Shown here one piece after another: positions 1 through 64,000 of a stretch of DNA of 64,000 nt. The stretch spans positions 682,001 through 746,000 of the forward strand of contig OZ237755.1 of assembly GCA_965178125.1 (NCBI GenBank), in the 5' to 3' direction. This DNA comes from Bilabrum cf. latius. Its lineage: Eukaryota. How positions within the stretch are numbered: the stretch's first letter is position 1; the number at the start of each line of letters is the position of its first letter. A model generated the notes under the pieces. The model was not told where the DNA came from, searched no databases, and saw only the letters and a program-made list of their open reading frames with translations. Both the position numbers and the translations under genes were made by a program.

Positions 1-3000
1 GCCGTTTCCGTGGTGTAGACTTTCTTCACGATCGTCTGCTTCACTTGCTTGCCTGTCTTGGGGTCCTTCACCTTGATCTCCTCGGGCACTTCCTGCTGGG
101 CAAAGTACCTGGATTGCTCTGACTGTCGCAGCCTTGCGATGGACTGCACCACCAGCGAGGTGAATCCGCTGCGCACGTCCGGGTTGCTGACTCGGCCCCA
201 CGCGTCCGTCGCGTACTGGGTGCCCTGGGGATCCTCGCGAATCCTCCTGAGGAACCACGACCCCGCTGGCGAGAAGCGACCGAACAGTCGCCGCAGAGGA
301 CGGAAGAAGCCCCGCCCCTGCACCATGACGGTGGCGCTGCCGTGTACCAGCGCAAGCCGCGCAAATGCCGTGAGCCACTGGATGGTGCGCATGGCGTCGG
401 CCTGGTATACCAGCGCGACGGCACCGTCAGGCCGCTCTGCACCGGAGCCCGAAGAGGCGGCAGCACCAGTAGCGGCTGCTCCAGATGTCCTGGCCGGGTG
501 GTCGAACGGAAGCCCCGCAACGGCGTCGGGATCTTTCGCATCCCACGCGCGGAGTGAGAATGGGTCTGCCACGGCAGGCACAATGCCCTTGAGGCGCACG
601 GCAGCACGGGCCACCCGCACCATGAACCGGGCGAGGTTGGGATCGAACACCTGCCGCTGCACCATCTGCAGCTGGTTTTGCTCCGCGATCGCCTTGGAAA
701 GCATCGGCGAGGCGTGCCCCTCCCCGGTCTTTGGGTTGCTCGGCGCGAATGCTTCTTGCAGTGCAGTCTTAGTGCCATCAAGGCTGGCGTACTCCTTGGC
801 GTCGAGCTCCCTCGCCTTGAGCTCCTGCTCCGATGGCGTGTACTCCTTGCCCTGCTGCGCTGCTTCGATCGCCTTCTTGTTGACCTCGTCGTCCTCGCCC
901 TCCACCCTCTGGCGAACATTAAGGTGAGCGAACGACTTCCTCCTCTCATACACCAGCATGTAGGCGTTCTGGGAATTCTCCACCATCTCTTCGACGTACT
1001 TGCCATCCAGCCTCTGCCTCGTCTCTTTTCGTTTTCCGCCGAAGCACTCGTCTGGAATGCGGCTGGGATCGAACGGCGTCACGAGATTGTCGTTGAACTC
1101 CATCCACTCGCCTCTCCAGCTCTCCGCGCTGTCGTCGTCGGAGCTGCCACCGGCACCCGCTCCGCTGGCAGGCTGCCTAGGAGACGAGTCGCTTCCACCC
1201 TCCTCGCTGCCTGCGGCGACGACGGGCTCCTGCTTCTCGTCCTCCTCCTCGTCCTCCTCATCTGAGTCCGATTCGTCGTCATCGTCATCGTCCAGGTTCC
1301 CCTGCGTGGCAGCCATCAGCGCGCGCCGCAGCAGCTTTTGCCTCTCCTTTGCGGCCCGTTTCTTGCTCATGCCAGCGATCCCGCTCTTCTTCCTCTGCTC
1401 CGCCCTGAACTTGCTGCGGGCGCCCCTCTCACGGATGTACGAGTAGTAGTGCCCGCTGTCCGTAGTGCCCAGGTGCACGACAACGCCGACCAGATCGTAC
1501 TCGTAGTATTCCTGTGGCCTGCCCTCAGCCAAGCCCACGCCGTACGGCCGGGCGACCTTTGCGTCCTCTGCCAGTTCTTCAGGCGTTTTCTCTGCGCCTG
1601 AGCCCTCGCCTCCATCTCCGCCATCTGCTTCAGAAGCGTTGCCGGGAGCTTCCTTGTCGTCTTCGCGGTCTGCTTCCTTGGACTCTCCTGCGCCGGCACC
1701 CGCGGCCGCTGCATCTTCTGCGGTGGCCTTCGCCTTCTGCTGCATTTCGTTCTCCCATGCAACACCCTCGCGCGTGTAAGGCCACATGTCGAGCTGCTCC
1801 GGGAACTCGAAGCGGTCGTTCACCTTGATCGTCTCAAAGGTCGTGTAGTCCAGATCGAACCGCTTGAGGTGCAGCACCATCGTGTCGGGCAGCTGCGACA
1901 CGCAGCTTCGCTTGAGCACGGTCGTCTGCTCGGACTCGCCACCCTCCTCCTCTTCCCAGCGATACCCCTCCACCGGGTCACCTGCAGCAAGGCCGCCCAG
2001 CGACTCCAGCAGCGAGTTCTTTCCCCTCACCTCGCACTGGATGCACACCCAATCCTCTTCGCTCCGCCATTTCACCTTGCCCTTGCCATCCTGCCTGGAC
2101 AGGGCGCTGATCGACCTGCCCCTGATGGTGGAATCGAGGATTCGCCGCTGGGGCAGCCCAGCTAGAGACGAGTCGAGCCTCTCGCAGAGCAGACCGAGGA
2201 ACTCCTGCGCGTCCTGCTGGATAAAGGCCTTTGTGGGCTTGCCTGCGCGGTCCTTAAATCCCTTGAGCCACTGGGTCGGGTCGTAGCACTGGGTGTTTGC
2301 GCGATCGAGGAAGCCGAACATGCGCTGCAGCTGGCAAAGCATGTCCTCCTTCGCCTTTGAGCCGATCTTATCCTTGGGAACTCCTCCCTGTTCTACCTTG
2401 GCCTGCGCCTCCTCGATCTGCTGCAGCAGCTCCGGGGGCTCCTTGCCCTCCTCCGGCTCCTCCACGTCGTTGGCCTTGGCCCAAGCACGCTTGGCACGGA
2501 TGGCAGCCACGCGCTTCATGGCGTCCACCTGCTTGCGAGCCAGTACACCTTCAGCATCGGCTGCCAGGACACCAAGCCTCAGTCGCTCCACGTTAAAGAA
2601 CTGCTGCAGAAGGGCGATCATGTAGCAGATGCAGCCCAGGTTCTTGATACCCAGGTGGCCCGTGGCGCTCCTCTGGTTCCGCATGGGATCGAACCGGAAC
2701 GAGCGTGTGACCTGATCCGGTCTCCAGGGAACAATGCTGGCCCCCTTATTCGCGTCCGAGTCGGACTCTTTGTCCGCGGAGCTCTCTCGCCACATGAAGT
2801 CGCGTACCTGAAGGAACACCCTCCGGGCATGGACGCAATCCGCCGGGGCGTTAGGTCCGAACAATGTCGCGATGAGTGCGTATGCCGATCGCCTCGTCAC
2901 GGGCTTCTTGCACCACGGGGCTGACTGCTCCGACTGCTTCTCGGACTGCTCTGGCGAGGACGACCCTGCCCCGGATGCCGCTCCAGAGCTATCGTGCCCG

Positions 3001-6000
3001 ACGGACGAAGAGAAGAGACCTCGGGTCAGCAGCAGCGTGGAGATGTCAGCCCCGCCGTCCCCAGCCGACTTGGCAAGCCACAGGCGAGCAGTCTCGCTGG
3101 ACTCCGCGGCAGCCGCCAGCAGCTGCAGCGCACTGCACAGCTTCCCGTCCTGGTTGCCCTGCACCCAGTCCTCGGTACTGGGCCCGGACAGTGCCTGCCT
3201 GACCTCGTGCGCCGCTGCCTTGAGCTCTGGAACGAGCCAAGGGAGCACCCTGGCGGCATCGACGGGGAAGTACGGCCCTCCGTGCTCCGGGGCAGACAGG
3301 GATTCTTTCCTTACCGTGGCTTCGGCGGTTGCTGACGGGACCGGCTCAGGCAGTGGCTCGACACTATCGCCGTAGTCCACCGCGTCTCCCTTGCCTTGGT
3401 TCTCCCTGTACCTCTCCTCTCTCTCGATGGCATCGATTTCCTTGAGAGAGTCTCCGCCCTCCGGGCCTTGCCCGCTCACCGTGCGGAGAAGGGAGGCCAC
3501 AGCATCCAGGTACTCTCCGCAAAACTGGCTTGCCTTAGTGCTGCAAGCTAGCTTCAATGGCCGAGCTAAGGAGATCGCGCCAGCAGCCTCCTTCCCCTCG
3601 GCAGAGTCTTCCGCAACGCTTCGCCTTGGTCGATTGCGAACGAACAAGGACACCAGCGCGTGCTCAGGAACGTGAGATGCCGCCATCGCGTCAGCGCATT
3701 TGTCCTAGTCCCCTGCAGCGGATCGCACAGCCATGTAGGCCTCAATCTTGCCGCCAGCCTGTCGCCGGACCACGCGCGCTGTCTCCACAAGCACCACAGG
3801 GATGCAGGAACAGGCCTCGCGAATAGGAGTCCAGCGTCTGTTATCGCCGTGAAGCAGGGCAGAGCCTACGAGAGCCTCCGCCAGGGTGCAGGGCTGGCTG
3901 CCTGCTGCGCACTCTGCTGGACTCTCCGCAGGTACCGCGCCAACTGCAGCGGTCCAGGCACCGGGGCAGGCCCCCAGGAGCACAGGGAGGCAGTTGGCAG
4001 CATGCAATGCACTGCTGCGCCAAGCCGAGCTCATGGCTTGCCCCTCGATTCCCGACTCCCGTTTAAGGCAGACGGCTCTCCATAGCATTGCCACCATAGG
4101 GCCAGCGAGCTGGGACCAATCAAGTGTCGATCCATCGCCTACAAAGGCAGCTTGCGCGGCGGAGGCAGTCGCCAGGTCCAGCGATCCAGATCCGGCGGCC
4201 TGCTGTGCGGCAGCCTGCTAAGCAGGGAGGATACTCTCTGCTTCAGATGTGACCGACTCGCGATTCGGCCAACGAGCCGCAGCTGCAGCTACGGCCCACG
4301 GACCCAAGCTCCTGACGAACTCCACCTCCAAGCCAAGCTCCTGCAGGTGCAGCGAGACGTCCTCGGGGGCAAGCGGGCATGCCGACTCGGAGGGCTCGGC
4401 CTCCGGGTAGCGCTTCAACCACGTGTAGTCGCTGCTATTCATGACGGCGGCGCCCTCAAGCGCCGATTCCTCGGGGTCACTGCCGTCCACCATACTGGCT
4501 GCCGCGGCATCCGCCAACCTTGGGGAGCAGCAGGGCGGAGGATCGGATTTGGCGATGCTGTAGAGAGACTGCTGCTGCAGCATCATCGAACGCACCCCAA
4601 GTGCCGTGGGGAGGATGGGCAAAACGGCACCGCACCAAATTGACTGCAGTAGTTGAAGGCACTCCGCAGCGGCCACGCTGGCTGCCCAGCATCCAGGCGA
4701 AGCGCGCCACGACCCCGGCTCACCCTGCCACTCGGCCCCTTCTTTCGCCGTGGCAGGTGAGCCTGGCATCGCGACTGCAGCTTCCTCGGGAGCGCGCGTG
4801 CTGCCGTACGCTGCGGACCCAGCGGCCGCTTTGAAGGCCTTGATAAGATGAGATACCCCCACTCCGCCCGCGTAAAACTTGCGGCGCCAGCGGATCCGTT
4901 CGCCCTCCTCGGCTTGGGCATCAAGCTCGTGCGCCCTGCACCCGTCTGCGCTCTAAGACGCCGACAGCTCCAATGTGGAATTGATGCGGACGCGGAATCT
5001 GCACCTCGACGCTGCCCACTGCGCGAGCCTAGCCTATGGCGTCAGCATCTTTCGGAGAGCCAAGACTCCGTACAGCAATCTGGCAGGAGAATCGGTCGGC
5101 AAGATCGCCTCCATGTCTTCGGTCGTGAGTGGCTCCTCGAGGGCGCTCATCGCAGCCAATCCAGCGGTCTCCGAGGGCACCCCGATTGAGCCCTCGGGCA
5201 GCAATGCCACGCAATGAGCACCCTCCCTCGAGCCAGCCTAGCGCCGCAACAGGTACAAAGCCATGTCGTCGCGGGCAGCTGCTAGGCCTGACGCAATGTT
5301 CGGGTTGTCTGCCGTGGTGTACATCTGGTAGGCCGAGGGCTCCGGGTTCTGAGGCTCCAGCGACCTGTCGAAAGTGCGGAGCTCAGGCGGCACCGAGGCA
5401 GTCGCGGACAGCTGCCGAACCTTGGCCTCGATGTCTGGCTCTGTCGGGCACCTGCTCAGGATCGTCCACAGCGATTGCAGGGTGGCTGCGGGCAGCGGCA
5501 GGCACGGCGACCGTCCCTTGACATCCGAGGCGGCATCGAGCGCCTCGAGCAGCACAGAGTGGGCTGATGACCACCTGGACAAAAGCGCGGGAGCAAGCGT
5601 GTTGACTGCTCGCGGCTCGACCGGATCATCCTGCGCCTTAAGAGCCCGCAAGAGAAGAGTCTAGGTGTAGCCCAGGTTCGGCACAAGGTGCACCGGCTGG
5701 CCTTCCGTGCTGCTGTCTACCTTCGTGCCGTCCTAGAACTGGAATATCGCCGTGAACGGGTCTGCTCCAACGGCGGCGCAAAGCTCCAGCTTGACGTCAG
5801 CGAGAGACTCGTACGGCTGGATCGTCACGTTGCACGCCTTGTGCCTCTTGATCTTGGGCGGAGACTTGGAGCCAGGTGACTGGACCGCTGCTCCCGAGCC
5901 ACTTGCTGCAGCAGCAGCTCCATCGTCTGTTGTTGGGTCGGTCACGATGGCGTTTACAGAGATGCGGACAGCGTTGCCAAGGTTTAAGTCGCTGTAACTG

Positions 6001-9000
6001 GCCCACCCCACCATTGCGTCGGGCGCGTGCATGCCAAGCCTGCCCACTGCGGCAGCGCTGTCACCACTCACCAGAGATAGAAGCGTGCGGACTGCACGAG
6101 ACGCGAGCTCGGCGCAGCGCTTCTGCACGTACGCAGGCTCGCTGCCTTCTGCAGGCAAGCCGGCCTGGGTAAAATCGGCTTCTGCCGGCTGCTCGTCTTC
6201 ATCTGCGCCTGCGCCACCACCGGCACCAGAGGCTGCTTCATCGATGATCGAGCCGGTGCTGCTGGCCCGCGGCATGTCTCCGATGGAGGGCAGCCTGCGA
6301 AGACTCGTGGCAGCCTCCGGTGGCACCTCCAGGCGGGCTCGCGCCACGGCTGTGCGGATGGCAGCAACAGCACGCTTCAGGTAGCCCGCCATCATGTTGG
6401 CCCTCTGCTTCTTGGCATCGCCCTGCAGCTGGTGCAGCAGCGAGGCTAGCTTTTCAGCCGCGTGAGTGGAGGCCGTCTCGTCTTGTCCCCCGAGAGCGAT
6501 GCGCCAGAACGCGCCCTCGCCGACGAGGCCCGAGTCGTGCTCACCTACCTTCTGCACGGTGAACGAATTGGCTGAGCAGTGGAGCCTGCCCTCGTAGTGG
6601 TTCACGTAAAGGAACGCGCGGTTCAAGCACGCCTGCAGCTGAAGCCACAAAAAGCTCATCGGCTCCTTCCAGCGCTTCCGCAGACCTGATACATCGTCCT
6701 CGTCACACAAATCAGAGGGATCGTCAGAGACCCACGGACCCTCCAGGTGCTCTGTGAGAAGCCTGACAATGCATTCTCCAAACACGACGGGGTATCCTCC
6801 CTTGCTTCGCAGCTTGGCCGCGACGGCTGCAGAGCTACCGCGCCGATCAGTGCCCAGGAATTCGGATTCGATGCGCACTCTCTCCTCTGGGTCCATCTTT
6901 CCCAGGGGCGCCAGCTTCTTCTTCTTCTTCTTCTTGATCTTCTAGTCCGAATCACCAGCACCTGCCGCATCCTCGACGCTCTCTTTCATCACCATGGCAA
7001 GCTCGCGCTGGGCATGGACGTGGATGGATTCCTCGCGGAACAGGGAGGAGATGCAGTTCGCAAACCACTCCAGCAAGCGCGCTCGTTCGCCTGGCGTGCT
7101 GCCCTCAGTGGCAAGCAGCTCCCACATCGCATCCACATCGGACGGCTGGAGCAGCAACGGGCCACACTTGTGCAGGCAGCCGCCCAGCAGCGACATGCGG
7201 CTAGCTACACCGGCCAGATAGCAACCTGGCCTAGTGATCCCCGAGCTGTAGGAAGTTGCCTCCGATGACGCGGCCTTGACCCTGCGAGTGGTCGCTGACG
7301 CCGGGTCAGGGGAGCCGGCTGGCGGCCTGCATCCCAGAAGGGGGGCGGGGGGCTCCGCGGGCTCGTCCACCAGCGCTGTGTCCAGAGCCGCGCTCCGCAA
7401 GGGGGTGCATTTGCGAGCATCCTCCCTGAAATTAGCGAGCTCCTGCAGCCACACGGTTGCGATCTTGCCGTCGCCTAGCAGGTCTAGCAGGAGCCTGTCG
7501 GCGTCATCCTGCTCACTCATCACGACATTCCCGTCTTCGTCCTTCACGACGGGCTGCAGCAACCGGATGGCATCCACGCAGGCAATGAACACCTTGCGCA
7601 TGGAGTTGGTGGCGTAACCGTTGGACAGGGCGGCCCACGCATCGCGAGCAATACCAGGGAGCACTGGCCCGAGATGCGTCCGAACGATGACAGACTCAGC
7701 ATGACTGCGTGCCGACTCAGATACCTCAGTCGGCAGCATGTCGTTGGCCTGGGACCCGAGATCCTTCGCGGCCTCCTCAGCTGCGGCAAAGGCTGAGCTC
7801 TCGCTGGCTGCGGCCTTGCCGTTTACCATGCCCGAGCACCGCGATGCCGCCTCGACAGCTCCAGCCAGCCAGGCGCATATCCTCACGCGGCTGAGATCGG
7901 TCACCCTGTCGCCCTCCGCGCCCTCTTCCATAGCCCAGGTGGTGGCGTCCTTAGCGGCAGTCACTCCAGCAGCTAGCACACGTGCTCGCCAGGCTGCCAG
8001 CGACACAGGCGAGGCGCATGCGAGCATGATTTGCAGGGCGGCGCACCTCACCCTTGCGCATTCCGCATCATCAGAGCCCACATCGATGTCCACGGCATCA
8101 GGGCTAAAGTAGGACACGGCCCGAGCGCCCGCCTCGATGTCGCCTTCAGTGGTTTCTATAGTGAGAGGCATGATTGTCTTCGCCGCGAGTTCAGCGCCCT
8201 GCAGCTCAGACGGGTCCCAGCCCTCAAGCTTCACAAATTCGGCCTGGCTGGGCATTGGCGCGGCAGCGCCCTCGCCGTCCGAGGTGCCAGCGCCAGAAGA
8301 CGCCTCGAAGGAAGGTTCGTCGGGCTGGCCATCAGGGAACAACGCGCCGCTCTGCAGAGGCAGCACCTTGAACCACGCCTGCTCGGCCTCCCCGGCGTCC
8401 ATGCCGGCCAAACGGCACCACTTGTCTGCGGGCTTGAGGTCACCGGCCAGGCAACGGAGCAGACCCAGAGCACCGCTGCACCATGACTCCTGCGGCAGGA
8501 CCATGAGCCAGCCAAGCAGCAGCTTGCGCTGACGCGGGAGAGCGTACGCCGCGACTGCGTTCAGGGCCTGCCAAGCAGTCTCGCCAAGCCCCACCTTAGT
8601 GCCTGCAGTGCTGGCAACTTGCCATACCAACGCTAGCTGGCTGTCGGGCAGCTGCCCATGAGCCGCGAGCCAGCACATGGCGTGGCCGGCCTGGTCCCAC
8701 AGCGAGTTGTGCCGCCGCAATTCGAAGGCATCACGGACCACGTCAAGTCCGCGCAGCCACCCAGCCAGCCTAGTCGAGTCTAGCCACGCGGCTGCTTCTC
8801 TGACCAAATATGCCCCCTTGGGACCTCTCCGGATGTGCCTGTTCTGCAGCTGTGCACCAGCGGGTAGGGCAGCTCTATAGGATGCCCCAGGTGCGTGGCC
8901 CACAGTCTGGATCAGCTGATTCAAGGCTAGCTGCCCCGCCAGCCTCGAGGGAAGCGAATCGCTTCGGATGGCCTGCTTGATCAGAGCCATCCGTGCAGGC

Positions 9001-10974
9001 TCATGGAAACGAGCAGCTGCTGCCTCCGGCATGCTGCGGCGCAGGGCGTGCCGGAGGTACCTCCAGATGTTTATGATGTTGTTGTGCCGGAGCTCCCTCA
9101 CGTCTCGGCGGCGAATGCGCCTGCAGCACTCGCACAATTGGATGGCGCAGGTCCTGATCCACTCCGAGCTCGTGTTCCAAGACGAGAACTCGCTCGCCTT
9201 CATCAGCATCAGAGAGGCCACCTCGATCATCAGAAGGCTGAGCAGACCGTCTTCTTTGTCCTCCTCTTTGGCTTTCTCCGTCTTGCCCGAGTCTCCCGGT
9301 GCATCCCCCGCCCCACTGCTGGGCTCGGCTGCCTGATCGGAGCCGAGGTCTTCCTCCTCAATTGCCAGCTGTTTCGCTCTCTCAGCAGCGGAGCGCAGTC
9401 TTCCCTGGATGGCAAACATGGTGGGCATCTCTTCGTCTTCTACGTCCTCTTTTCCGGAATCCACTAGCACCTTGTACTTTAGGAACCTCACGAACGTCTG
9501 CGACTGGGCTGTGCTGCACCACTGCCCGTACGGCCTATGAGTAATCGACATGAGCTTTCCCGTCTCCGTCTGCTTCTCCAGCATACTGAGGTCTTCTCTG
9601 GCCCATCCCAGCGACACGGGGTCAATGTAACCATCGGGAACTGCCGCGGCCTCCACCTCGTCCCCGTAGTAATTGCGGACATGTGCATCGGTGATCATCC
9701 GGGGCCTGACGATGTACGGCGAGCCCCTCGCCACGGTCCAATCATGGCTAGTGGGATGCCCAATGAAGTGGATCCCAAGCTTGTCGCCGTTGCTCGGCTC
9801 GGGGTTCTGCTCCTGCTCATCGTGACCCCCGCGCGCCGCGGCGTCGTCGTCAGCCTGTGCGCTGGTATCAAACTCGACAGAGGTAACCACAGCCAGGCGG
9901 AACGAGTTGTTCGAGTGGTGCTGGCAGTCCAGAATCGACCCAACTCGCAGGCTGTTCCTCCATTCTTCGCCAGCAAGCAGCGGCTCGTTTTCCTCGTCTG
10001 CCAAACCGGAGGCATCCGCGCTCTTGATCATCATCACCTTTCGCTGCCACTCGGCGCCCATGCCGACCGGAGCAATGTACTCGGGAGTATTGGTCAGCTC
10101 TGTAGTTTTATCTCCCTCGCCCAAGAGTACGGAGACTTTGTATCCGCCGGCGTCGACTGCGATAAGGAAGGCGGGCTGCCACGCGCCCGACTTGAGCAGC
10201 ACGTCAACCCGCGCATTGCCCTTGGCACCCTCCTTGTCGAAGAGCTATTGCGCCCAGTTGTACTCGATCGCGGGCGCGAAGCCTCGGTTCAGGGCGTCGC
10301 GCTCGCCGTCGAGCATCATGTGGCCGAACGAGCCGTACGCTCTTGCGGAGCCCTCGCCGCCCACAAGATACGCAATGATGCTCGCCTGCTTGACGTTGCC
10401 TGTGGCCCACCCTCGCGCAGCAATGCGAGCGTATGATGTCAACATCTTGCGCATGTTTTCCTCCATGTTTGGGTCCTGCAAATCCACTTTGGTGTTGCAA
10501 ACGGCGGGTGCCAGCTTAGCTGCGCCCTCATGGCAATACCAGTCGTATATTTTCTGGAACGTTTCCTTGCCATACTCTTGCTTCCCTGTGACAGGGTCTT
10601 TTGCCCAGATGGGCTCGTCCCGATCAGCTTCACGTACGAATCTGTCCCATCCCACAAGGTTCGCGATGCCTCGAGCACCTTTCCCTGCTGTGAAGGCATC
10701 TTCTGCGGAACAAATCGATTCGGGGGGGAACAGAGTCAATGGCAGTGCTGCTTGTTTTCACTTTATACAAAACTGGCGATCTCTGCAGGGTGGTGCCGCG
10801 GGAGTGCACACTCTGGGCAGGATCGCGATGCTGGTGCTACAGCACCCGGGCAGCATGCCATCGCACAACAATAAGACTTAGGGACTCACTTGCAATCAAA
10901 TCAGCATATATATAGTCTATGTTTCGGGTGAACTTCTCGAAGCAGTTTTGGTTGATCTGCTCAGGGCCTGCCAT
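1..10974 (-). CDS. Ubiquitin-specific protease (peptidase C19), USP9X/USP24/USP34-like, >3,600 aa; 3' end runs off the window start
   Basis: One minus-strand frame runs from 10747 to 1 when 9 TAGs (10245, 6942, 5733, 5661, 5238, 5034, 4953, 4218, 3705) are read through, with no TAA/TGA. Cys box GHLGIKNLGCICYMIALLQQFF (~2660-2595), QQDAQEF-like box (~2220), His box VVVHLGTTDSGHYYSYIR (~1485-1430), WMEFND (~1105-1090), NAYMLVYER (~970). Putative exon 1 10974-10890 (MAGPEQINQNCF...) with a GTGAGT donor; the exon 1 model is less certain than the body. Confidence 0.9.
10748..10889 (-). other. Putative spliceosomal intron (142 nt) in the USP gene
   Basis: GTGAGT donor, ...ACAAGCAG acceptor, phase 1. 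It removes an in-frame TGA at 10758-10760. The acceptor resembles the ACAAGCAG acceptor at 15748. Confidence 0.6.
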
Positions 10975-52788: not shown

Positions 52789-53297
52789 TGTTTGTACGAG
52801 CAGCGGGAAATAGACGCTACTGTATCGACCAGAACACAGCCTATCTCAGCTGACTACAAGCTATGGGTCACAAAACGAAAATATTTGTTTGACTGGATAG
52901 TACAATTAGCGCAGCAGCTCAAGCAAGAGGCCGAAATCAGTGGATACGTTTTGCACTTGCTGTTCGGTTTAGTAGCGTGTTACCATCAGAGTAATCTGTA
53001 TTTTCATGCCGGTTGGAATAATGTGCATTCCTGGCACTTCGACCCGCTTCAATCATGGACAATGACCTTCCGTCTCATATGCGGAAAGAAAGAAGTGAAA
53101 TGGACGCTCTGGCCGATGCATATTCTCGAAAGCGAGATACAGGATCTCGATTTGGCTCAGTGGACCGGGTGCGGGTTCCACTGCAACCGGCACGCATGCC
53201 AGCCCCAAGATCAGGGGGACCGCCGTCCAATCACCCTGCCAGAAGCCATGAGCACAACTAGAAATATGTTGACTAGCAGAATGCTGCTCTGGAAGCG

Positions 53298-54611
53298 ATG
53301 GAAGACCTTGCAAGGGCTGGTGAGAGAAATGGAGGCCGGTTTGGGGGTGGCCGCGAGGCAGCCACTTCACGCAGTGGGGCATTCTCGCGCGGGAGTGTGG
53401 GCTCTGGTGTAGTCTCTCGAGGTGCTCCACGCGGGTATTCATCTGCATCGTCTCGAGCAGGGGCAGCGGACAGGTCGTCACTTGCCGCCGCGTTTGTGTC
53501 AGGCGGTGTAGGAGCAGCCCCTTCCCTGGTCGCCAGCCTGACTGACAATTGGAAGCGAGGACCCATTGATCCCAAGGGAAAACCTTTGGACCTGAGTGAT
53601 AGGCCGCTGCTCTGCAGCTCTACAGACGCAGCAAGAGGCGAAGTTGTGGTAGGCGGTTCGGACCACGCCTTGTACGTGATTGACGCAGCCACGGGGCAGC
53701 GAAGGCGAACCCTGTACTCGAAGCGGTACGGGCACGAAGAGTGGGTCACGGCAGTCACGCATCTCGCTGACGGGCGCGTCGTTTCGGGCGCGATGGACGC
53801 TAAGCTGTGCCTGTGGGACAGCTCTGGCGTGTCCTGCCAGGACTTGCGGGGGCACGTGGGCACCGTGAGCGATGTGGAGGTGTGTGGGGGTGTCATCGTC
53901 AGCACGGGATACGACAGGACCGTCCGGGTCTGGAGCGCTAGTTCCGGCTCCGAGTTGGCGGTTCTAAAGGGGCATTCAGGGCCTGTCCTGAAGGTCGTGT
54001 GCGGAGACGGGCTCGCGGTGAGCTGCGGCAGGGATGGGGTGGCGTGCGCTTGGGACCTCGAGAAGGGGTCCAGGCTCGGTTCAATGAAGGGCCACAAAGG
54101 GCACGTTACTTCCGCCGCGTGGCTGGGCAGGCCAGACACAGGGGCCGGGCTGGGCGCGAGCGTGTTTGCGACGGGGGCCCAGGATGGTCACGTCCGCGTG
54201 TGGGACTTGAGGGGCAAGCGAGCCCTGGCCAATGAGTTGGTACACGTGAGGCCAGAGGGCGTGGGAGCTGTGAACGGGCTGGTCATGACACCGGGGGGAG
54301 GTGGCAACGCCGGCACGTTGGTGTCGGCGGGTGCCGATGCCGCCGTGTGCACGCTAGACCCGAGGAAGGGCTTCACTGTGCGGACGCGCATGGAGCAGCA
54401 CAACGACTTTATCTACTCTCTGGAGGCGGCCGGTGACCTGGCATTCAGCGGTGCCGGCGACGGGGCGCTCCTGTGTCACGATTGTAAGGCAGACAAGCCG
54501 CTCTGGGCGCTGGGCGCGAACAAAGCTGCCGTGCGGTGCATTGGCGTTACGCCGAGCCGGCTCGTGGCAGCAGGCGACGACGGCCATGCGCTCGTGTACA
54601 GGTTTGACTGA
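53298..54611 (+). CDS. WD40-repeat protein, 437 aa
   Basis: Uninterrupted ORF with multiple GH...WD units (GHEEWVTAV...LCLWD, GHVGTV...VRVWS, GHSGPV...CAWD, GHKGHV...VRVWD). TGA stop, no TAG. Confidence 0.92.
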   Translation: MEDLARAGERNGGRFGGGREAATSRSGAFSRGSVGSGVVSRGAPRGYSSASSRAGAADRSSLAAAFVSGGVGAAPSLVASLTDNWKRGPIDPKGKPLDLSDRPLLCSSTDAARGEVVVGGSDHALYVIDAATGQRRRTLYSKRYGHEEWVTAVTHLADGRVVSGAMDAKLCLWDSSGVSCQDLRGHVGTVSDVEVCGGVIVSTGYDRTVRVWSASSGSELAVLKGHSGPVLKVVCGDGLAVSCGRDGVACAWDLEKGSRLGSMKGHKGHVTSAAWLGRPDTGAGLGASVFATGAQDGHVRVWDLRGKRALANELVHVRPEGVGAVNGLVMTPGGGGNAGTLVSAGADAAVCTLDPRKGFTVRTRMEQHNDFIYSLEAAGDLAFSGAGDGALLCHDCKADKPLWALGANKAAVRCIGVTPSRLVAAGDDGHALVYRFD

Positions 54612-55038: not shown

Positions 55039-58000
55039 TCACGATGCTGCGTTGGACCGCCAGTCGTACTCGAAGAAATCAACCCGCACAGCACGCACCT
55101 TGCCCGGAGTGGACGGGGCTGGTGCTCGCTGCATATCTGAGTCCGACTCAGACGAAGTGATCCCCTTCCAAACTACATCATGCCGTGTGTACTCACCATC
55201 CAAAGCTGGACAGTTGGCCGGGAGCCACCTAGGAAGCCCGTCAGGCGCGATGGGCCCCAAAAAATCCTAGCAAGCAGCCGTAGGAGCACCTGCTCCCCTA
55301 CCGGATTCTGTAGTCTTAGAATGGCAGGTACTCGGCTTCAGCAGACCTAGCGCGACGAGCGAGCACCCATGTTTCCCACATGAGCCTCTGGCAGGCGCAC
55401 CTGGGCTGGCCCCGCTGCTGCTCGCTCTAGAAGTTTGTGCAGATACCGGTTCAATCGCCCACTTGCCACTCAATGCGGAGGACGCAGGGCTAGTGCCATG
55501 CAAGAAGCCACCGGCCTGTGCACCAGCCCCTACCATCGAGCCAGCACCGATCGGTGCCCGAGTCTAGTCGCCCTTGCGCTGCTGCGCCGTTGCTTGCTCC
55601 CTGGCACGCACCGTCCTTGCCGCAGCCGCCGCTAGACCTGAACCCACCCACCCCAGAGCACTCGCAATGGCGGCACGGACCGGTGGTGGGCCATACCTGA
55701 ACGCAAACCGGACGATCGCCCCGTAGGAATTCCTCTGCCCTGCGCATGGCCTCCATCCCAAGTCCGGGCGGATGCTACCTGCGGAACTGGAACGGGCGCC
55801 GCGCACCGACAGCCCGGACCGAGTTGTCTCCCTGCTGCCTGTTTGGCTGACGATCCGACGGATTGAACCCTCCTCCTCTTCAGAACCCGTCCTAGCGGAA
55901 GCGCTTCCCGCGGCGCTGGTATCTCCAGTTCGTGCCCCACGTTCCGAAGAATCGCGGTAGCTTGTCGTGGATGCTGTAGGGCTCGCCCCACCGCCATGTG
56001 GCCCAGGTGGTCCCACTGCAGCGCCCTTAACGTCATCTTCCATCCAGCCAACCGCCGCCCCCAGCCCGAAGCAACCGTTCCAGCTTCCGCCAAAGTCGCA
56101 CATGTACCAGCTGAACAGCTTGCTCATTCGCACGTGCACGCTGCCTGCCTTCGGCACACAAGACGCGCCCTTTCCACTCGCAGTAGCGCAAGCACCCGCA
56201 GCATCAATAGCCCGCTCCAAAGCCCTTTCTGCGCCGTCGCCTTCTGCCATTGACGCAGCCCAAGCCCACAGGACTGCTGCGTCGGTGGCGCGGCCATTCC
56301 CACGCTCGCTCGTACCACCAGCGGCAGATCCTCCCGAACCGCCCTCTTTGCTTCCTCCCTTACGCGCGCTGTCTTCCTGCGATTTGCACACCCAGTTCAG
56401 CGACAGCCCTAGCCTCACGTCGAGAGACCTGGGGTCGCTGAGAAACGCCTCGGCTGCGAGGTCCAGGGCTTTCCCGAGGGGCGAATCCAGCCCAGGGAGA
56501 CCGTTCGTTGTTCCCTGGGCAACAGATCGGGTCGACGGCTTGGTCGCAACCGTGTCATCGACCACTCGGTCCTTCATGCTCGCCTGAGGCATGGCAACCG
56601 AGGTCCCGGAGCTGCCCGAACCTGTGCTCGCAGACCGCTGGCGAGGCCTCCCCAAAGCTGAAGGACCCGCACCGCTGTTGCTGCTGCTCTCAGAGTCCAA
56701 GCTGTTCGCACAGCCCGCACCAGATGCTGGAGGTTGTGCCGCGCTGTCCAGGCTCTGGTAGGCGGTCGTGCGCGAAGTTGCTTGCAGCTCCAGCATCTCC
56801 ACGCGGTCTGTGTCCCTGGCTGCAGCTGAAGACAGGACGGGCGAGAGCATCGAAGCAGACCTACGCCTGCGCGACCGAGGACCGTACACATCCGTGTCTT
56901 CGCCTTCGTCCTCGTCTTCTTGCCCAGGCTCCCTGGCCTGTCCAGGTGCCTCCCCTGCCGCCGCCACCGATGATGGTGATGATCCAGCATGGACAACAGG
57001 AACAGGGGCAGGGGTGCCTGCCGTCTCCTCCTCAGCCTCAACTTCAAGGTCACCTGCATCATACAGCCGGAGCGGCGGGCACGCCCTCGCACCGCACACG
57101 AGAGCAAAGTGCACCCTGCAATCGGTGCCACCGCCGCGCGCCAGTGCATTTGACTGCCTGGCGTCTCCAGCCGCGAAAGGCTGCCCGCACATCCACTGGG
57201 GTAGCACGGAGGGCGGGCTCTTGTTCCCTCGAAGCACCCCGTGCTCGATGTCATCGAGGGTGTACTTCCAGGGCCCGATACGGTAGGACACCCCGCCGCT
57301 GCCGAAGAGCTTCCGCCGGCCCCAGGCGCTCAGCGTGGCCGCAGGTGCTTCGGCGCCGCGCGTAGCCGCGTGACCAGGTTCCGCAAGCGCGGCCTCTGAT
57401 TCCGGGTTGGTGCAAAGCAGCGCCAGCGCGTGCAGACAGAGCGCGTTGTACAGGTTTAGGAAGAAGGCTGCCCTGTGCGCCGGAGGCAGTGCCGATGGGT
57501 CGCACGCCTGCAGCGCAGCAGCCTGCTGCACGTAAGCAGCAAGCGCGCTCCCCGCCCGCATCCTGCCGTAATCGACGTAGTGCCCGCACATGCTGAGGCT
57601 GTCCTCCAGCAGCTCCAGCTACCGAGAGTGAAGGTCCTTCGCTAGCTGCAGCGGATCCACCGGCGGGCCTGCGTACGCCGCCGCGCAGTTGAGCGGGAGG
57701 CCGCTTACCAGGCACTCGCGAGAGGCAGCGGCCGGCAGCGTGAGTCCGTTCCGGAGGAGAGGGATTTCATTCCCGCCACAAGCTGGTGTACCTTCCACTG
57801 CCCTTGTCCAGGGCTGCGGAACCTCCTGCGGCGCCGCGAAGGCCACGCCGGTGTACCCGTGGCTAGTTGGTCGCAATGCCGCGGCGCCTGTTAAGAGAGC
57901 CTCGTCGGCTGCAAACCGCCACAGCGAGTGCTCGCCTGACGACCCCTTGTTCCCTGGAAACACGTTGTTCCCTCGTGCCGATGCCACGGCCCCTCCGTTC

Positions 58001-59499
58001 GTTCCTCCTGCCGGTCGCCCGGTGCCCTACTCGCAGGCGCAATCGACCAGTCCAGGCTATCCATCCAGTAAGCTTGGAGCCGACGCAGCCGAGCTGGATT
58101 CTCTGCCGTGCGATGGCAATGTCGCTGCTGTTCTTGCTGAAGCAGGGATGTGCAGTGCCAGCGCGTCTAGTCGATCATAGGGGAGCAGACCGCTTTTGCC
58201 GGCTCGGACGAGCATACCTCGCCTGACCATCTGCTTCGCCAGATTGCTCGCTTTCTTGAAGGCAGCGCTCGCTTCGTGTGACGAGGGGCGCTGATCCTGC
58301 TATGATGAACCGCCGTCGTGGGACTAGCGGGCAGCAGAGGGTGCAACTGGAGACAAAGCAGCTGCTCGTGCTCCGTCCTACTTGCTCTCCGCCGGAACGA
58401 GTCCAAACAGGAGACTTGCTGCCACCAAACTGACCACTTCGTGGCCGTGAAGACATAAGTCCTGTCCTCCAAATCCGAAAAGGTTTGCCCCTTTCGATGC
58501 ATGCGGGCTTTGCACGCCCTAAGACGCTGCCCAGTCGGCCGCTCCACGCCACGTCACCAGCTGCTCGCCTTCCAGTTTCGCGCCGGTCCACGGGAGGCAG
58601 GGCTGCCTACCACGAGCATCCAAGCTAGCACCCTCCAATAAATTAGCCACCATGGCGCATGATGCACTGACTTTTGACAGCCACTCTCCTTCCCTTGCGA
58701 TGGTACCATGCAGCTTGCGTTGCTTGGCCAGACTAGCGCTGCGGCTGTGGCTCGTGCCAGAACCTGAACAGCCCTACCACACATCGCAAACCGAAGCCTG
58801 CAATACGTTTCCTAGGCAGCACGGTGACGGACTACCAACACTATCTCCACGCGGTCCTCTGCTTTGCACGCACGCTCGGCATGCGCAGCCGTTCCCAATC
58901 CTTTTTCTCTCTGCGACCCACTCACGAATCCGTTCGGCCCCAGCAACTGCTAAATCTCCAGTGAAGATAACTGGAACTACAACGGCGAATCCAGAGTTGG
59001 AAATGGGACGTGGATTTCGATTGAAACCCAACCCGTCAGAAGCACCACTTGCCTCGGGGCTCCACTGCAGGCTAGATTTCCAACGTTTTCGCAAAGCCGA
59101 CGCACCAGCTGCATCACATATTTTTACTTCGCGGAAAGTCACCCCTGCTTCTCGCAAGCAACACCGCGATGATCTACAGTGCGAACAAGCAGCAGCCGAG
59201 ACCAAGATGGGCGCCTCCTCGCGAAGCTCAGAGATTTGACCAGCACATAGCCGCACCAATGACTTTTTATATTTACCAGATCTTAATTCAACGCCAGTTG
59301 AATTCGAGGCAGAGCCGAGAGCACTGCTCTTGGACTCACGCACGCCCGTGACGGCCCCAGTTGCATCGATGAAAGTGTCGCCGCCCCTGGGTCTCCCAGC
59401 AACCCTTTCGACTTGAGCAGCAGGAAAACTAGATTCTGATACTTCATCAATACTTTCCCTGGGGAGCCTCGGCAGAATTACTGTGGAATTGCCCTCCAT
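55039..59499 (-). CDS. Glutaredoxin-DEP-DUF547 multidomain protein, ~1,486 aa (start uncertain)
   Basis: Grx-like ACSHCRSSRCCLREAGVTF...VVPVIFTGD. DEP-like CLHGHEVVSLV...ASNLAKQMVRRGML...SLWRF. DUF547 VDYGRM...AFFLNLYNAL...YTLDDIEHGVLRGN...RVHFALVCGARACP...MSKLFSWYMCDFG, with terminal VDFFEYDWRSN just before TGA 55039. Needs read-through of 10 TAGs (58774, 58519, 58378, 58324, 58300, 58057, 58027, 57619, 55564, 55267). Confidence 0.85.
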
Positions 59500-59992
59500 C
59501 CCCAGTGCCGTCTTGAAAGATTCCAGGCTCGTCAACAGGCGTACCACGTCCCGTGAACAATCTCAGGCTAGGACAAATAGCAAGTTGGGGTTGTGATGAA
59601 CTATATCACTCCTTTAGTTGAGTTCTGAGAGGTAGCAACTGGCCTCGCCCAGTGCCTGAGAAATGATAAGTTGGTGAAGTGGTGATGTGACAGCCTGATG
59701 AGGTCCCGCTGCAGCAGAAGCGACGTGGTGCAGCCTTCCGAAGGTGCCAACGGCACTATAACGGTTGAGCGCCGCAGTCTATGGTATCAGGAGATAGTCT
59801 ACCCTGTTTTTCTAGAGATGGCAAGTGCGCAGCTTTGTTTACGGCTCAGGGCCCGAATTGCTTGGGCCTCCAGCCTCGAGCCCAGAACGGCGACTCTGCT
59901 TTGTGTGATGAGTGCACAACCATGAAGATGAATGTGTGATAATAAAAATCGGCCTGCTTGAGGGGGGTTTTCAGCCGGAAATATCAAAAGCC

Positions 59993-60721
59993 ATGCGTAG
60001 AACTAGTGTGTTTAGAGCCATTAAATTATGTGCAACCGGATTTCGCGGAGCTAGTCCTATCTTCTGTGGAAGTATTCGATAGTTTGCTTCCGGATCTGAC
60101 GCAGTCGACAAGAACCTCAAAGCTGCGAGGGAAGCTGCCCGAGAAATGCAAGGAAAAGTCAAGCTGCAGTATAAGAAAGACCCGGGGCTTGCCAAATCGC
60201 TTGCCACAGCATCTTGCGTCGTGCCGGGATTCGTGGAGCCAATCAGCGATCAATCACCGCATTGTTTTGTGGCCAGGCAGCCAATGCACAATAAAGAAGG
60301 AGAATCCCACATCATGGGACTTGCTCCATCTACGGGTGGGAACGAGAACTATGGGTGCAGCGCTGACATGGTGCTGTAGGCCCTGCTCGGGTGCACCGGC
60401 ACGACGCTGCGCGCTGTGGCTTCGGCGCGAGGGGCCATATTCGACCGTTGCGTCATCGAGGCGGAAGGCGACTACGATGCGAGAGGCACACTAGGTGTCG
60501 ACAAGGCCACGCCTGTGGGAATGACGGCCGTTCGGCTCCGCTATCGATTCGAAGTTGGACGCTCAGTTGCTGCCGGGCATGTGATCGGGAGCGCGGACTG
60601 GGAGAAGGTGCTCGCCACGACGGAGAAGTACTGTGTTGTGGCTTAGACCCTAGCAGCAGGACTAGAGGGTGGAATCGAGACATCGTACGTCATCGACCAC
60701 TCGGCCGCAGACGAGGCGTGA
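59993..60721 (+). CDS. OsmC/Ohr-family protein with a putative mitochondrial presequence, 242 aa
   Basis: MRRTSVFRAIKLCATGFRGASPIFCGSIR(TAG)FAS...GLAPSTGG...CSADMVL(TAG)ALLGCTGTTLRAVA...AEGDYDARGTLGVDKATPVG...TEKYCVVA(TAG)TL; both family cysteines present. TAGs at 60080, 60377 and 60644; TGA at 60719. Confidence 0.88.
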
Positions 60722-61631: not shown

Positions 61632-64000
61632 TGTACCATGTGCAGCGTCTCGGACAGTGGTCATCAACGAAGAGCACGACCACCTACATCTGGCAGGAAG
61701 CCGACGGGCTACAGGCGATCGATATTGGCTGCCAGTGGTCGCACGTGGAGCTGCAGCGTGCTCCACACGCAGCGCTGCTTGAGGCAGTTGCTCAAGCGTG
61801 AGCGTCCTGCTGATCCCGACTTCCGTAGAGTCACTTCGCCTTGCTTCAACGAGCCCCCTGTAACCATTCTGTAAGGAAGATGCGGTAAGACATGGAGAAT
61901 TCGTTGTGTGTCACCACTATTGGACAAAATCTATCGGTGGATACAGGCACATGGCGACGGCTCTGTGTTTGATGCCATGTCTGGTTGTATTTTGGTGGTT
62001 GAGTCTGCAAAAGAAGCTTTCACCATGGAGGTCACGATGTCGTGCTCATCACGGCGTGACGCAGGGCCTGTGCGGCAGCGAGAACGAAGATGCTTCACAT
62101 ACAAATAATGTAGCCAAGTCATAACGTGCAAGTTTTGGACACAATTGACCAAATTCGCGAGAATTTACGGTTCTGGCCCACGTCGTTTGATCAGAGTGGG
62201 GCCTTCCGCCGCGCAGTTCTGGCAGTGGCGGTCCTCCCAGATTCGCAAGGCAGCCCAGCTGCCGCAGCGGAAATTCAGAGTCTAGCTGATGTTGACATCA
62301 ACGAACGTCTAGGATTTGACAATCTAACAGCAATACGCCTATACACTGACGTGTGCCGCGCGCTGCTGCCAGTGTGCACGCCATCTGTCGGTCTCTCGGA
62401 GCTGCAGCGACTCTGCGCATCGAGGGCCACTCAGCTTTCGCTAGCTATATCTAGCGCTGAATTGCAGCACTGCTTGCAGTATATTGCCTCTGTAGCTGAT
62501 TCAGACGGCACAATGCTTCCCACAGAGACGATTCGAGACAGGCTTGTATCCGCGGTCACAACCAGGGCCTCTACCGGTTCGCCTAGCGTGGGGGCTATAA
62601 AGAAGGAACAGAGTACATCCGAGCGCACTGCACAGGATCAAGCGCCAAGATAGACCGTGCCCAGTTCCTTGTCTGGCCAGCGGACGAGTAGTTCGTAGCA
62701 GGTGCCAACCCCGAGCAACGCTTGGTCGAGCTCAGGCAGGCCGGCGAGCGCAGCAGGCCCCACGGCATCGAGCGTTCCGGACAGAGAAACAGCCTCATCC
62801 ACCGCGACTCAGAGCGTTTCTGACCTTCATTTCGCGGTTGGAATCGAAAGCGATCACGATTCGGAGACTGCAGTCGAGATGGGACCGGTCGGCTAGGCCT
62901 CGCCCTTAGCTACCCCTGCCGGAGGGAGTGGTGGTCGTGCTAAATCTCCTTGTCCTGGCCCTGTGCAGGCCGCAAGAGATGGAACTGGAAGAGCCAGGGC
63001 ATTCAACAATGATTCAGTGTTTCATGGGGCTCCCTGCCACGACAGCAACGATTTCCTGCGTCATGCCAGTGCCGCCATCCATGGTCGCACGGCTCTTGAC
63101 CCTGGGCCCGAGTGGAGGGCAGTCACACCGACGCGAGGCCCAGGTTAGGACAACGAAATGCAAGACAATGGGGCCATGGACGGAGAGAGAGGACGACTAA
63201 GGCCAGACCTGGGCAGAATCACCTCGTCATCCACGACCTCGTCGTCCTGGTCGTCTGCATCCCAGCTCGCAAGAGGCCTCGGGGTCGTTGGTAGCGAGGC
63301 TGAGGCAAGTTCAGGCGCTGCTACTTGTTCTGACATGCGCATCAGCTCCAATCACCGGTCATCGAGCGCTGACGAGAGGTTCAGCGCAAGCAGCCTTGAC
63401 TTGGAAGAGGCAGAGGATTTCGATGGCCTCTCACCGCTGGCAACGGTACCGGGCTGGGGCGGCTGCTCGCCAGTGCGGTCGTCTGATCGCAATGCCGTGA
63501 TAAATACCAGTTGCAAGACTACCAGCTCCGGCCTATCATTGGATCGCCGCGAGTTGCTGCCTCACTCGCTGCAGCCAGCGCCACAGGTGCCCACGGGATT
63601 CAATCCAGCAAGCCGCACTGGGCAAGTGCAGATGCAAGGGGCGCAGATTCTCGCTTTTCCGGACGATGGAAGCTCCGGCTACGCAGCTTCGCACCAGCAT
63701 CCTACATCCATCTCGCACATTGCATCGATTGGGCGGGCTCCACCGCAGCCAGGTGCATCCAAAGCCGGCAGCAGCAGCAGCAGCAGCAGCAGCAGCCACG
63801 CAAGCCATCAGGTTCCCGTCATGGACTGGCACTCCGGCCCGCGGACCCATAGTGCAGCGATGAGCGGATCCACCGATGCGTACCTCATGACAGTTGCAAC
63901 CACCTCCACAGCTAGATCTATGGCACACCTAGCCGGATAGAAGCGCAGTGCTGCGGGCATGCAGTCCCAGTCGGTTCAAGCCCCCCGTGGGGCAAACGGT
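61632..64000 (+). CDS. Hypothetical protein, multi-exon, 3' end off-window; 5' structure uncertain (may start near 61023)
   Basis: ORFs 62126-62653, 62702-62896, 62963-63148 and 63158-63940 share one frame linked by TAG only (62111, 62651, 62696, 62894, 63146, 63938) and stay open to 64000. A putative phase-2 intron 61798-62064 (GTGAGC...ACGCAG) links them to an upstream exon. No family recognised. Confidence 0.55.
63768..63796. repeat. (CAG/AGC)n trinucleotide run encoding poly-Ser
   Basis: About 9 perfect units. Confidence 0.9.

What the first reader, a model, noticed from the sequence alone, without database searches (positions are those of the whole stretch)
1..64000. Non-standard nuclear genetic code: TAG is a sense codon throughout the window
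Seen: 11 genes on both strands stay in one reading frame across about 100-105 TAG codons (USP 9, 11300 gene 9, EXPERA 1, MFS 3-4, Clu-TPR 14, C2CD3 ~39, SFI1 9, PDZ-like 3, Grx-DEP-DUF547 10, OsmC 3, last gene ~6). No frameshifts or in-frame TAA/TGA occur apart from those removed by canonical introns. Conserved domains continue after the TAGs: the USP catalytic domain lies downstream of 9 TAGs, the second half of the MFS after 3, and the DUF547 terminal YDW.N motif after 10. Established: reassignment of UAG alone is rare in nuclear genomes (UAG=Gln in the fornicate Iotanema spirale, UAG=Leu in a rhizarian, and cases in phyllopharyngean ciliates). Inference: this GC-rich protist with mitochondrial genes may be an independent origin. 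Novelty depends on the taxon, which I cannot determine.
Basis: partly seen in the sequence, partly recalled or inferred. Interest (0 to 1): 0.97.

Follow-up and report, generated by a model that had tools for sequence, protein, structure and literature searches.

The report
TAG read as glutamine codon
This GC-rich protist contig reads the stop codon TAG as an amino acid, most likely glutamine, while still ending genes with TGA, a rare kind of nuclear genetic-code change that here seems to belong to an undescribed group of environmental protists.

Summary
In 11 genes (53,175 nt, 83% of the window) the coding frame holds 104 TAG, 0 TAA and 0 internal TGA. The two other frames hold 46/70 TAA and 270/370 TGA. 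All 10 complete genes end in TGA. Four public runs show the same letters. One of them carries GT..AG-spliced contigs and keeps 44 of 56 TAG codons unchanged.

TAA is not a sense codon: about 30 would be expected from the CAA:CAG ratio, and none is seen.

A Clu-like gene has 27 metagenomic relatives, and all of them carry in-frame TAG. Five non-redundant ones end in TAA and five in TGA. Across 158 TAG columns glutamine is the best fit by at least 25 log-likelihood units, and in 2000 of 2000 bootstraps. The window alone cannot separate Gln from Glu or Lys.

Among 30 protein clusters looked up, the only named homologues are from Cafeteria. This hints at a bicosoecid-related stramenopile, but weakly.

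This code (UAG=Gln, UAA/UGA stop) is already known from Iotanema and some ciliates. The lineage appears to be new. No suppressor tRNA or eRF1 could be examined.

The parts
3..10757 (-). USP9X/USP34-type deubiquitinase gene. It runs off the window start. 9 in-frame TAG, all upstream of the catalytic domain.
   Evidence: Pfam UCH at residues 2703-3111, E 5.6e-37. Atlas look-alikes carry UCH+DUF3517.
11237..14572 (+). Gene of unknown family (1111-aa ORF). 9 in-frame TAG, ends in TGA.
   Evidence: No Pfam hit.
14981..15878 (-). EXPERA/EBP-family (TMEM97-like) gene in two ORF pieces. The last exon, 14981-15535, has no TAG and ends in TGA. The upstream ORF 15615-15878 holds 1 TAG.
   Evidence: Pfam EBP E 9.9e-10. 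Stop codon.
16050..18389 (+). MFS transporter gene. Its introns 16082-16178 and 16216-16428 (GT..AG) are spliced out in a contig of run X5. 3 in-frame TAG lie in the central loop; ends in TGA.
   Evidence: Alignment with relatives P0141/P0142.
18576..22859 (+). Clu-like/TPR gene. 15 TAG in the ORF, ends in TGA. This is the gene used to find relatives.
   Evidence: Pfam CLU and TPR_12. 93 HMMER hits. 27 metagenome loci.
23282..34194 (-). C2CD3-like gene. The main ORF 23282-33670 has 38 TAG. A first-exon ORF 33625-34194 has 1 TAG. Ends in TGA.
   Evidence: PF25339 C2_C2CD3_N, 32.6 bits against a cut-off of 27.
38949..50228 (+). 8 in-frame TAG, ends in TGA.
   Evidence: No Pfam hit.
50350..52845 (-). 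3 in-frame TAG, ends in TGA.
53277..54611 (+). WD40 beta-propeller gene. No TAG in the 444-aa standard ORF; ends in TGA.
55039..59562 (-). DUF547-domain gene. 10 in-frame TAG. Ends ...YDWRSNAAS then TGA.
   Evidence: Pfam DUF547 E 7.1e-23. Stop codon.
59993..60721 (+). OsmC-like gene. 3 in-frame TAG, two of them inside the OsmC domain. Ends in TGA.
   Evidence: Pfam OsmC E 1.6e-11. PDB match 2opl.
62060..64000 (+). Open ORF of unknown family that runs off the window end. 6 in-frame TAG.

Best explanation
The window is nuclear DNA of a GC-rich, intron-poor eukaryote. In it UAG has been reassigned from stop to a sense codon, most likely glutamine, while UGA (and, judging from relatives, UAA) still ends translation.

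Shown here: TAG is kept in frame in every gene, in DNA and in spliced transcript-like contigs. TAA and TGA are kept out of coding frames. A clade of environmental relatives shares the trait. Across that clade, TAG sits where homologues have the residue profile typical of Gln.

Inferred, not shown: a tRNA-Gln with anticodon CUA (or an equivalent decoder), and an eRF1 that no longer recognises UAG. These are as proposed for other UAG-only codes (PMC5304391, passages read).

TAG makes up about 12% of the Gln-type codons (98 of 784). It is commoner in genes with lower GC3, which fits origin by C-to-T change from CAG.
For: (1) Coding frame of 11 genes: 104 TAG, 0 TAA, 0 internal TGA. Off-frame counts are TAA 46/70 and TGA 270/370. 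10 of 10 gene ends are TGA.

(2) Reading TAG through joins the ORFs into single frames that carry Pfam domains downstream of TAGs.

(3) CAA:CAG is 159:527. If TAA were sense like TAG, about 30 TAA would be expected; 0 are seen.

(4) Runs X1, X5, X6 and X8, from four studies, show no difference at any TAG. The only three differences listed lie 31-33 letters from a contig end in X8. X5 has two GT..AG joints that are absent from X1, and its contigs break between the convergent gene ends. Its listed pieces cover 44 of 56 TAG codons with 0 differences.

(5) 27 of 27 metagenome loci encoding relatives of the Clu-like gene have 1-28 in-frame TAG. Their ORFs are 332-2178 aa with TAG read through, against 25-505 aa under the standard code.

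(6) Of 10 non-redundant complete ORF ends in these loci, 5 are TAA and 5 TGA. The TAA ends lie 0-31 residues after the last aligned residue.

(7) 158 TAG columns from 23 non-redundant sequences rank Gln first. Glu is -25.3, Arg -27.1, Lys -28.6, Ser -36.0 and Leu -105.1. Gln is best in 2000 of 2000 bootstraps, over columns and over sequences. The same classifier was right 200 of 200 times for each of 9 known amino acids at the same sample size.

(8) The commonest partner of TAG is Gln. In pairs of 55-70% identity: Q 82, A 37, P 21, E 20. In pairs of 45-55% identity: Q 137, R 71, E 54. In near-identical pairs TAG is kept 198 of 198 times.

(9) At window TAG 538 of the Clu-like protein, the nearest relatives mostly have Q.
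Against: The window alone does not fix the amino acid. Its 12 usable TAG columns gave Q first by 0.6 over K and 0.8 over E in one set, and E first by 0.6 over Q in another.

One OsmC TAG aligns with Val in the single PDB match.

The Gln call therefore assumes that the window and the metagenomic relatives share one reassignment. The TAG columns come from one paralogue-rich family and are not independent.

No tRNA gene was found in the window or in the 27 loci. No eRF1 is in the window, and no whole genome is held.

Run X5 is not on record as RNA; the tool labels it 'RNA? (probably DNA)'. Its transcript nature is my inference from the spliced joints.

TAA was never seen as a stop in the window itself (0 of 10).

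Whether TAG also ends some genes cannot be excluded from 10 gene ends.
Confidence: 0.8

Rival explanations
1. TAG is a sense codon but stands for glutamate (or lysine/arginine) rather than glutamine. UAG or UAR = Glu is known in some ciliates and in Blastocrithidia.
For: With the window's own 12 columns, E, Q and K are within about 1.7 log units of each other. At TAG 368 the homologues have E 10 and D 7 of 35. At TAG 538 the more distant homologues have E.
Against: Across 158 columns Glu is 25.3, Arg 27.1 and Lys 28.6 log units worse than Gln. Gln wins 2000 of 2000 bootstraps. The E share at TAG columns (0.101) equals the E share at true Gln columns (0.097), not that at Glu columns (0.287).
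Confidence: 0.1
2. TAG has a dual, context-dependent meaning: sense inside genes and stop at some gene ends, as in Condylostoma or the karyorelict ciliates.
For: This cannot be excluded from 10 gene ends. In the Clu-like gene a TAG lies 10 codons before the TGA.
Against: 10 of 10 window genes and 10 of 10 non-redundant relatives' ORFs run to TGA or TAA. The homologous C-termini (DUF547 YDW motif, WD40, OsmC) sit directly at TGA. By construction, these ORFs could not end at TAG.
Confidence: 0.06
3. Both UAA and UAG are reassigned (NCBI code 6 type), and TAA is simply rare because the genome is GC-rich.
For: All window stops are TGA and none is TAA.
Against: There are 0 in-frame TAA in 16,205 codons, where about 30 are expected from CAA:CAG = 159:527. 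The off-frame TAA counts of 46 and 70 show that the trinucleotide is not rare. Relatives end ORFs at TAA next to the homologous C-terminus.
Confidence: 0.02
4. The TAGs are not translated. They would be assembly or sequencing errors, decaying pseudogenes, or sites corrected by RNA editing or removed by splicing.
For: None was found. Run X5 is not certified as RNA.
Against: The letters are identical in four runs from four studies. Only one of the three stop codons occurs in frame, in 11 genes on both strands. TAG is kept 198 of 198 times between near-identical metagenome copies. The spliced contigs keep the TAGs.
Confidence: 0.02

Closest known systems
Iotanema spirale (Fornicata) nuclear code: UAG = Gln, UAA and UGA stop (PMC5304391, passages read)
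   Same: Only UAG is reassigned, to glutamine. UAG is not used as a terminator. UAA and UGA are kept as stops.
   Different: Iotanema ends genes mostly with UAA (104 of 119). Here 10 of 10 end in TGA. This organism is GC-rich (0.55-0.67). Its one traceable gene family points to stramenopiles, not metamonads.
Ciliates with UAG-only reassignment: Protocruzia tuzeti and two phyllopharyngean lineages (Gln); other phyllopharyngeans (Leu) (PMC11687900, passages read)
   Same: The same uncoupling of UAG from UAA. In several of these lineages the amino acid is also the same.
   Different: The window's only named homologues are from a stramenopile. No ciliate appeared among the named clusters. Ciliate membership was not otherwise tested.
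Rhizarian exLh (UAG = Leu) and Scotinosphaera (UAG = Ser) (PMC5304391; PMC11687900)
   Same: UAG alone is reassigned in a non-ciliate nuclear genome.
   Different: Leu is 105 and Ser 36 log-likelihood units worse than Gln here.
Cafeteria roenbergensis/burkhardae (Bicosoecida), the nearest named source of homologues
   Same: It has the same lineage-restricted Clu-like family (clusters P0033, P0085, P0046, P0053). Its genome is GC-rich with few introns: about 70% GC and 1.67-1.89 introns per gene (PMC6972860, passages read).
   Different: Cafeteria proteins of 1280-1414 aa were called under the standard code without breaks. They fall in the other half of the family tree, outside the clade that holds all TAG-bearing sequences. 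Identity to the window protein is only 33%.

Membership tests
UAG=Gln nuclear code with UAA/UGA stops (NCBI table 15 type; Iotanema type) | In-frame UAG inside conserved protein-coding genes, kept in DNA and RNA | tested here: met
   104 in-frame TAG in 11 genes. The letters are unchanged in four runs, including spliced contigs.
UAG=Gln nuclear code with UAA/UGA stops (NCBI table 15 type; Iotanema type) | UAG positions correspond to glutamine in homologues | tested here: met
   Met at clade level: 158 columns, Gln best by at least 25 log units, 2000 of 2000 bootstraps. For the window's own 12 columns it is inconclusive between Q, E and K.
UAG=Gln nuclear code with UAA/UGA stops (NCBI table 15 type; Iotanema type) | UAA is not a sense codon | tested here: met
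   0 in-frame TAA against about 30 expected.
UAG=Gln nuclear code with UAA/UGA stops (NCBI table 15 type; Iotanema type) | UAA and UGA end genes | tested here: inconclusive
   UGA ends 10 of 10 window genes; UAA ends 0 of 10. In relatives 5 of 10 non-redundant ends are TAA.
UAG=Gln nuclear code with UAA/UGA stops (NCBI table 15 type; Iotanema type) | UAG never ends a gene | tested here: inconclusive
   No window gene needs a TAG stop, but there are only 10 ends, and ORFs were defined by reading TAG through.
UAG=Gln nuclear code with UAA/UGA stops (NCBI table 15 type; Iotanema type) | A tRNA that decodes UAG (tRNA-Gln CUA) and an altered eRF1 | not testable with these tools
   No tRNA in the window or in the 27 loci. 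No whole genome is held. No eRF1 gene is in the window.
UAR=Gln code (NCBI table 6) | UAA as well as UAG used in frame | tested here: not met
   0 in-frame TAA. Reading TAA through barely changes the ORF list: two ORFs gain one TAA each.
UAG=Leu code (rhizarian exLh type) | UAG at conserved leucine positions | tested here: not met
   Leu is 105.1 log units below Gln. The L share at TAG columns is 0.064, against 0.455 at Leu columns.
Codes with all three stops reassigned or ambiguous (Condylostoma, Blastocrithidia, Amoebophrya) | In-frame UGA and UAA | tested here: not met
   0 internal TGA and 0 TAA in 53,175 coding nt.
Bicosoecida / stramenopiles (taxon of the organism) | Phylogenetic placement by rRNA or many conserved proteins | not testable with these tools
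   No rRNA in the window. The only lead is one gene family whose named members are all from Cafeteria: 4 named clusters of 30 looked up. The named MFS hits were fungi at 35-41% identity, which is uninformative.

The most novel reading that the evidence does not exclude
This would be the first nuclear genetic-code change in stramenopiles. An uncultured clade related to bicosoecids would have reassigned UAG alone to glutamine, independently of Iotanema and the ciliates. The clade is visible in several metagenomes as dozens of paralogues that all carry in-frame TAG. In the window organism UGA has become the nearly exclusive stop.
Probability: 0.45. Interest if true: 0.8.

Novelty: new member of a known kind. 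Interest (0 to 1): 0.72.

Why it matters
Nuclear code changes that split UAG from UAA are very few. The papers read here name a rhizarian, Iotanema, Scotinosphaera, Protocruzia, some phyllopharyngeans and one other ciliate.

Each new, independent case tests the idea that eRF1 and wobble decoding couple the two codons. It also gives another natural eRF1/tRNA pair for comparison.

There are practical consequences too. Gene callers that assume the standard code cut this lineage's proteins into fragments. The database relatives found here are 54-480 aa pieces on contigs of up to 19 kb. The lineage is therefore under-annotated in metagenome catalogues. Any virus of such a host would have to cope with the changed code.

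Tried and rejected
- Whole genome: none is held. Codetta-type, tRNA and eRF1 surveys were therefore impossible.
- tRNA and Rfam scans of the window found nothing. A tRNA scan of the 27 loci found nothing.
- Word-index protein searches were of little use. The Clu/TPR query returned only generic TPR proteins. The whole USP protein returned nothing. The MFS query returned two unnamed relatives and fungal MFS at 35-41%.
- The MFS TAGs lie in an unalignable loop.
- Residues next to TAG (within 2 positions) are only weakly Q-enriched: 0.058, against a base of 0.042 and 0.061 for true Q. This does not discriminate.
- The TPR columns alone were uninformative.
- RNA: no RNA holder is listed among the runs.
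- The first metagenome query alignment had no conserved stretch, so a narrower one was used.
A different, TAG-free protein only confirmed the USP/DUF3517 type.
- Earlier findings of this scan: three look-ups found nothing.
- Supplementary files of the papers were not seen. They may list further taxa or codon tables.
Full report
**Observation.** The window is GC-rich, 0.55-0.67 in 4-kb bins. Under the standard code the longest stop-to-stop ORF is 2033 aa. When TAG is read through, neighbouring ORFs fuse into single frames of 3759, 3585, 3462, 1507, 1427 and 1111 aa, holding 8, 9, 38, 10, 15 and 9 TAG. Reading TAA through leaves the ORF list almost unchanged. Reading TGA through only produces overlapping ORFs in several frames, as expected for GC-rich DNA.

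In 11 genes covering 53,175 nt (83% of the window), the coding frame has 104 TAG, 0 TAA and 0 internal TGA. The other two frames have TAA 46/70, TAG 136/144 and TGA 270/370. All 10 complete genes end in TGA. TAG is thus about as frequent in frame as out of frame, while the other two stop codons are fully excluded. This is far beyond chance, and it holds on both strands.

**The genes are real.** Pfam finds the following:
- UCH at residues 2703-3111 of the first protein, downstream of its 9 TAG.
- CLU plus TPR_12 in the 18.6-22.9 kb gene.
- DUF547.
- MFS_1.
- WD40 propeller families.
- OsmC, with two TAG inside the domain.
- EXPERA/EBP.
- The N-terminal C2 domain of C2CD3, in the first exon of the 38-TAG gene.

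**Not an artefact, not edited.** Contigs of four public runs from four studies were laid on 16000-34000. X1 and X5 have depth in all 30 bins; X6 and X8 in 16 of 30. The only differences listed are three letters 31-33 from a contig end in X8, and none is at a TAG.

Run X5 is not on record as RNA, and the tool guesses 'probably DNA'. However, it holds a contig with two GT..AG joints (16081>16179 and 16215>16429) that the DNA-like run X1 lacks. Its contigs also stop between the convergent 3' ends of the Clu-like and C2CD3 genes. I therefore read it as transcript-derived. Its listed pieces cover 44 of the 56 TAG codons of the MFS, Clu-like and C2CD3 genes with 0 differences. X1 covers 56 of 56 and X6 24 of 56. 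The sequence at the two introns shows GT and AG ends.

**TAG alone.** In 16,205 codons of eight long ORFs there are 98 TAG and 0 TAA, while CAG:CAA is 527:159. If TAA were a sense codon used like TAG, about 30 would be expected. The window never uses TAA as a stop either (0 of 10). Its status there is therefore inferred from relatives.

**Relatives.** A full HMMER search of 1.84 billion representative proteins was run with residues 150-1060 of the Clu-like protein. It gave 93 hits. Many are short fragments of 54-480 aa at 35-76% identity; a few are 1000-2477 aa proteins. Of 30 clusters looked up, the only ones with organism names are four from Cafeteria roenbergensis/burkhardae.

A scan of metagenome contigs with the conserved motif returned 27 loci. 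All 27 have in-frame TAG in the homologous ORF, 1-28 each. With TAG read through, the ORFs are 332-2178 aa, against 25-505 aa under the standard code. Their GC is 0.52-0.60. Among 10 non-redundant ORFs with a 3' end, 5 stop at TAA and 5 at TGA. The TAA stops lie 0-31 residues after the last residue that aligns with other family members. In this clade, therefore, TAA and TGA are stops and TAG is not.

I built a quick maximum-likelihood tree of 42 rows. I left out five near-duplicate loci and every hit covering fewer than 250 residues of the query segment. All 17 TAG-bearing rows, plus 5 database fragments (two of them identical to loci), form one clade with SH-aLRT 100. The four Cafeteria proteins lie in the other group of 18 rows. 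The window protein is at most 44% identical to any locus. The loci are therefore paralogues or belong to other species, not the same gene.

**Which amino acid.** Every TAG-bearing sequence, with X at TAG, was aligned by phmmer to all family members. Columns with at least three aligned residues were kept, and near-identical pairs were left out. This gave 158 TAG columns from 23 sequences. Each column was scored against residue profiles learned from the same alignments for each of the 20 amino acids.

Gln ranks first. Glu is -25.3, Arg -27.1, Lys -28.6, Ser -36.0 and Leu -105.1 log units. The order is the same in three identity bands. Gln is best in 2000 of 2000 bootstraps, over columns and over sequences. 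As a control, the classifier named the right residue 200 of 200 times for Q, E, K, R, S, T, A, L and N, using 158 held-out columns each.

The Q share at TAG columns is 0.118, against 0.030 overall and 0.202 at true Gln columns. The E, K and R shares at TAG columns equal those at Gln columns. Pairwise, the commonest partner of TAG is Q. At 55-70% identity the counts are Q 82, A 37, P 21, E 20. At 45-55% they are Q 137, R 71, E 54. In near-identical pairs TAG faces TAG 198 of 198 times.

Against this, the window's own 12 columns cannot separate Q, E and K. One OsmC TAG faces Val in the only PDB match. The columns come from a single gene family.

**Mechanism.** By analogy with the published UAG-only codes, the change needs a tRNA that reads UAG and an eRF1 that has lost UAG recognition (PMC5304391, passages read). 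Neither could be examined. No tRNA gene lies in the window or in the loci, and no genome is held. These steps are inferred.

**Comparison with what is known.** I read passages of two papers. PMC5304391 describes UAG=Leu in the rhizarian exLh and UAG=Gln in Iotanema, both with UAA and UGA as stops. PMC11687900 adds Scotinosphaera (Ser), Protocruzia (Gln), phyllopharyngean ciliates (Gln twice, Leu) and a ciliate in which UAA and UAG are reassigned to two different amino acids.

The code seen here is therefore a known type. What appears new is the lineage. Seven full-text searches listed no nuclear UAG reassignment in a stramenopile or bicosoecid. That library lacks most subscription journals, and supplements were closed.

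Cafeteria has a genome of about 70% GC with 1.67-1.89 introns per gene (PMC6972860, passages read). This resembles the window, but the taxon rests on one gene family.

**Verdict.** The interpretation (TAG alone is sense) is supported. The amino acid is most likely Gln. The finding is probably a new, independent instance of a known code variant, in an undescribed environmental clade.

Noticed in passing
window 35107-35757 and 36492-37199: Two stretches about 1.4 kb apart give nearly identical translations over roughly 190 residues. A segment of about 0.6 kb is therefore duplicated inside the 5-kb gene-poor gap between the divergent C2CD3 and SFI1-like genes. None of its ORFs has a Pfam hit.
   Followed up: partly
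window 37761-37898 and 26074-26247: Two tandem repeats. One has a 34-bp unit x 4.1 copies (99% matches) in the intergenic gap. The other has a 57-bp unit x 3.1 copies inside the C2CD3 coding region, where it gives the repeated peptide ...ARGPLVASKVEGGASQARTA.... Contigs of the runs break at 26103-26178.
   Followed up: no
window, all 10 complete gene ends: Every gene ends in TGA, and in 5 of 10 the next base pair is GC. TAA is neither a stop nor a sense codon anywhere in the coding frames of this window. Relatives use TAA for half of their stops.
   Followed up: partly
window genes compared: TAG use follows GC3. It makes up 16-21% of Gln-type codons in four of the five genes with GC3 0.55-0.65 (Clu-like, C2CD3, DUF547, 11300 gene; about 10% in MFS). 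It makes up only 4-6% in the two genes with GC3 0.74-0.79 (USP, SFI1-like). This parallels the CAA share.
   Followed up: partly
P0022-P0114; L001-L027: The Clu-like family is very paralogue-rich in the TAG-using clade. One metagenome prefix alone gave 15 loci. Database proteins of this clade are short fragments on contigs of up to 19 kb, which fits gene callers stopping at TAG.
   Followed up: partly
P0065, P0075: Two unnamed 2073- and 2107-aa proteins sit as sister to the TAG-bearing clade (SH-aLRT 92) and were called without breaks. They may mark the nearest standard-code lineage.
   Followed up: no
runs X1, X5, X6, X8: The same sequence is held by runs filed under four different coded organism labels and four studies. 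The organism may therefore travel as a companion or contaminant of other samples.
   Followed up: no
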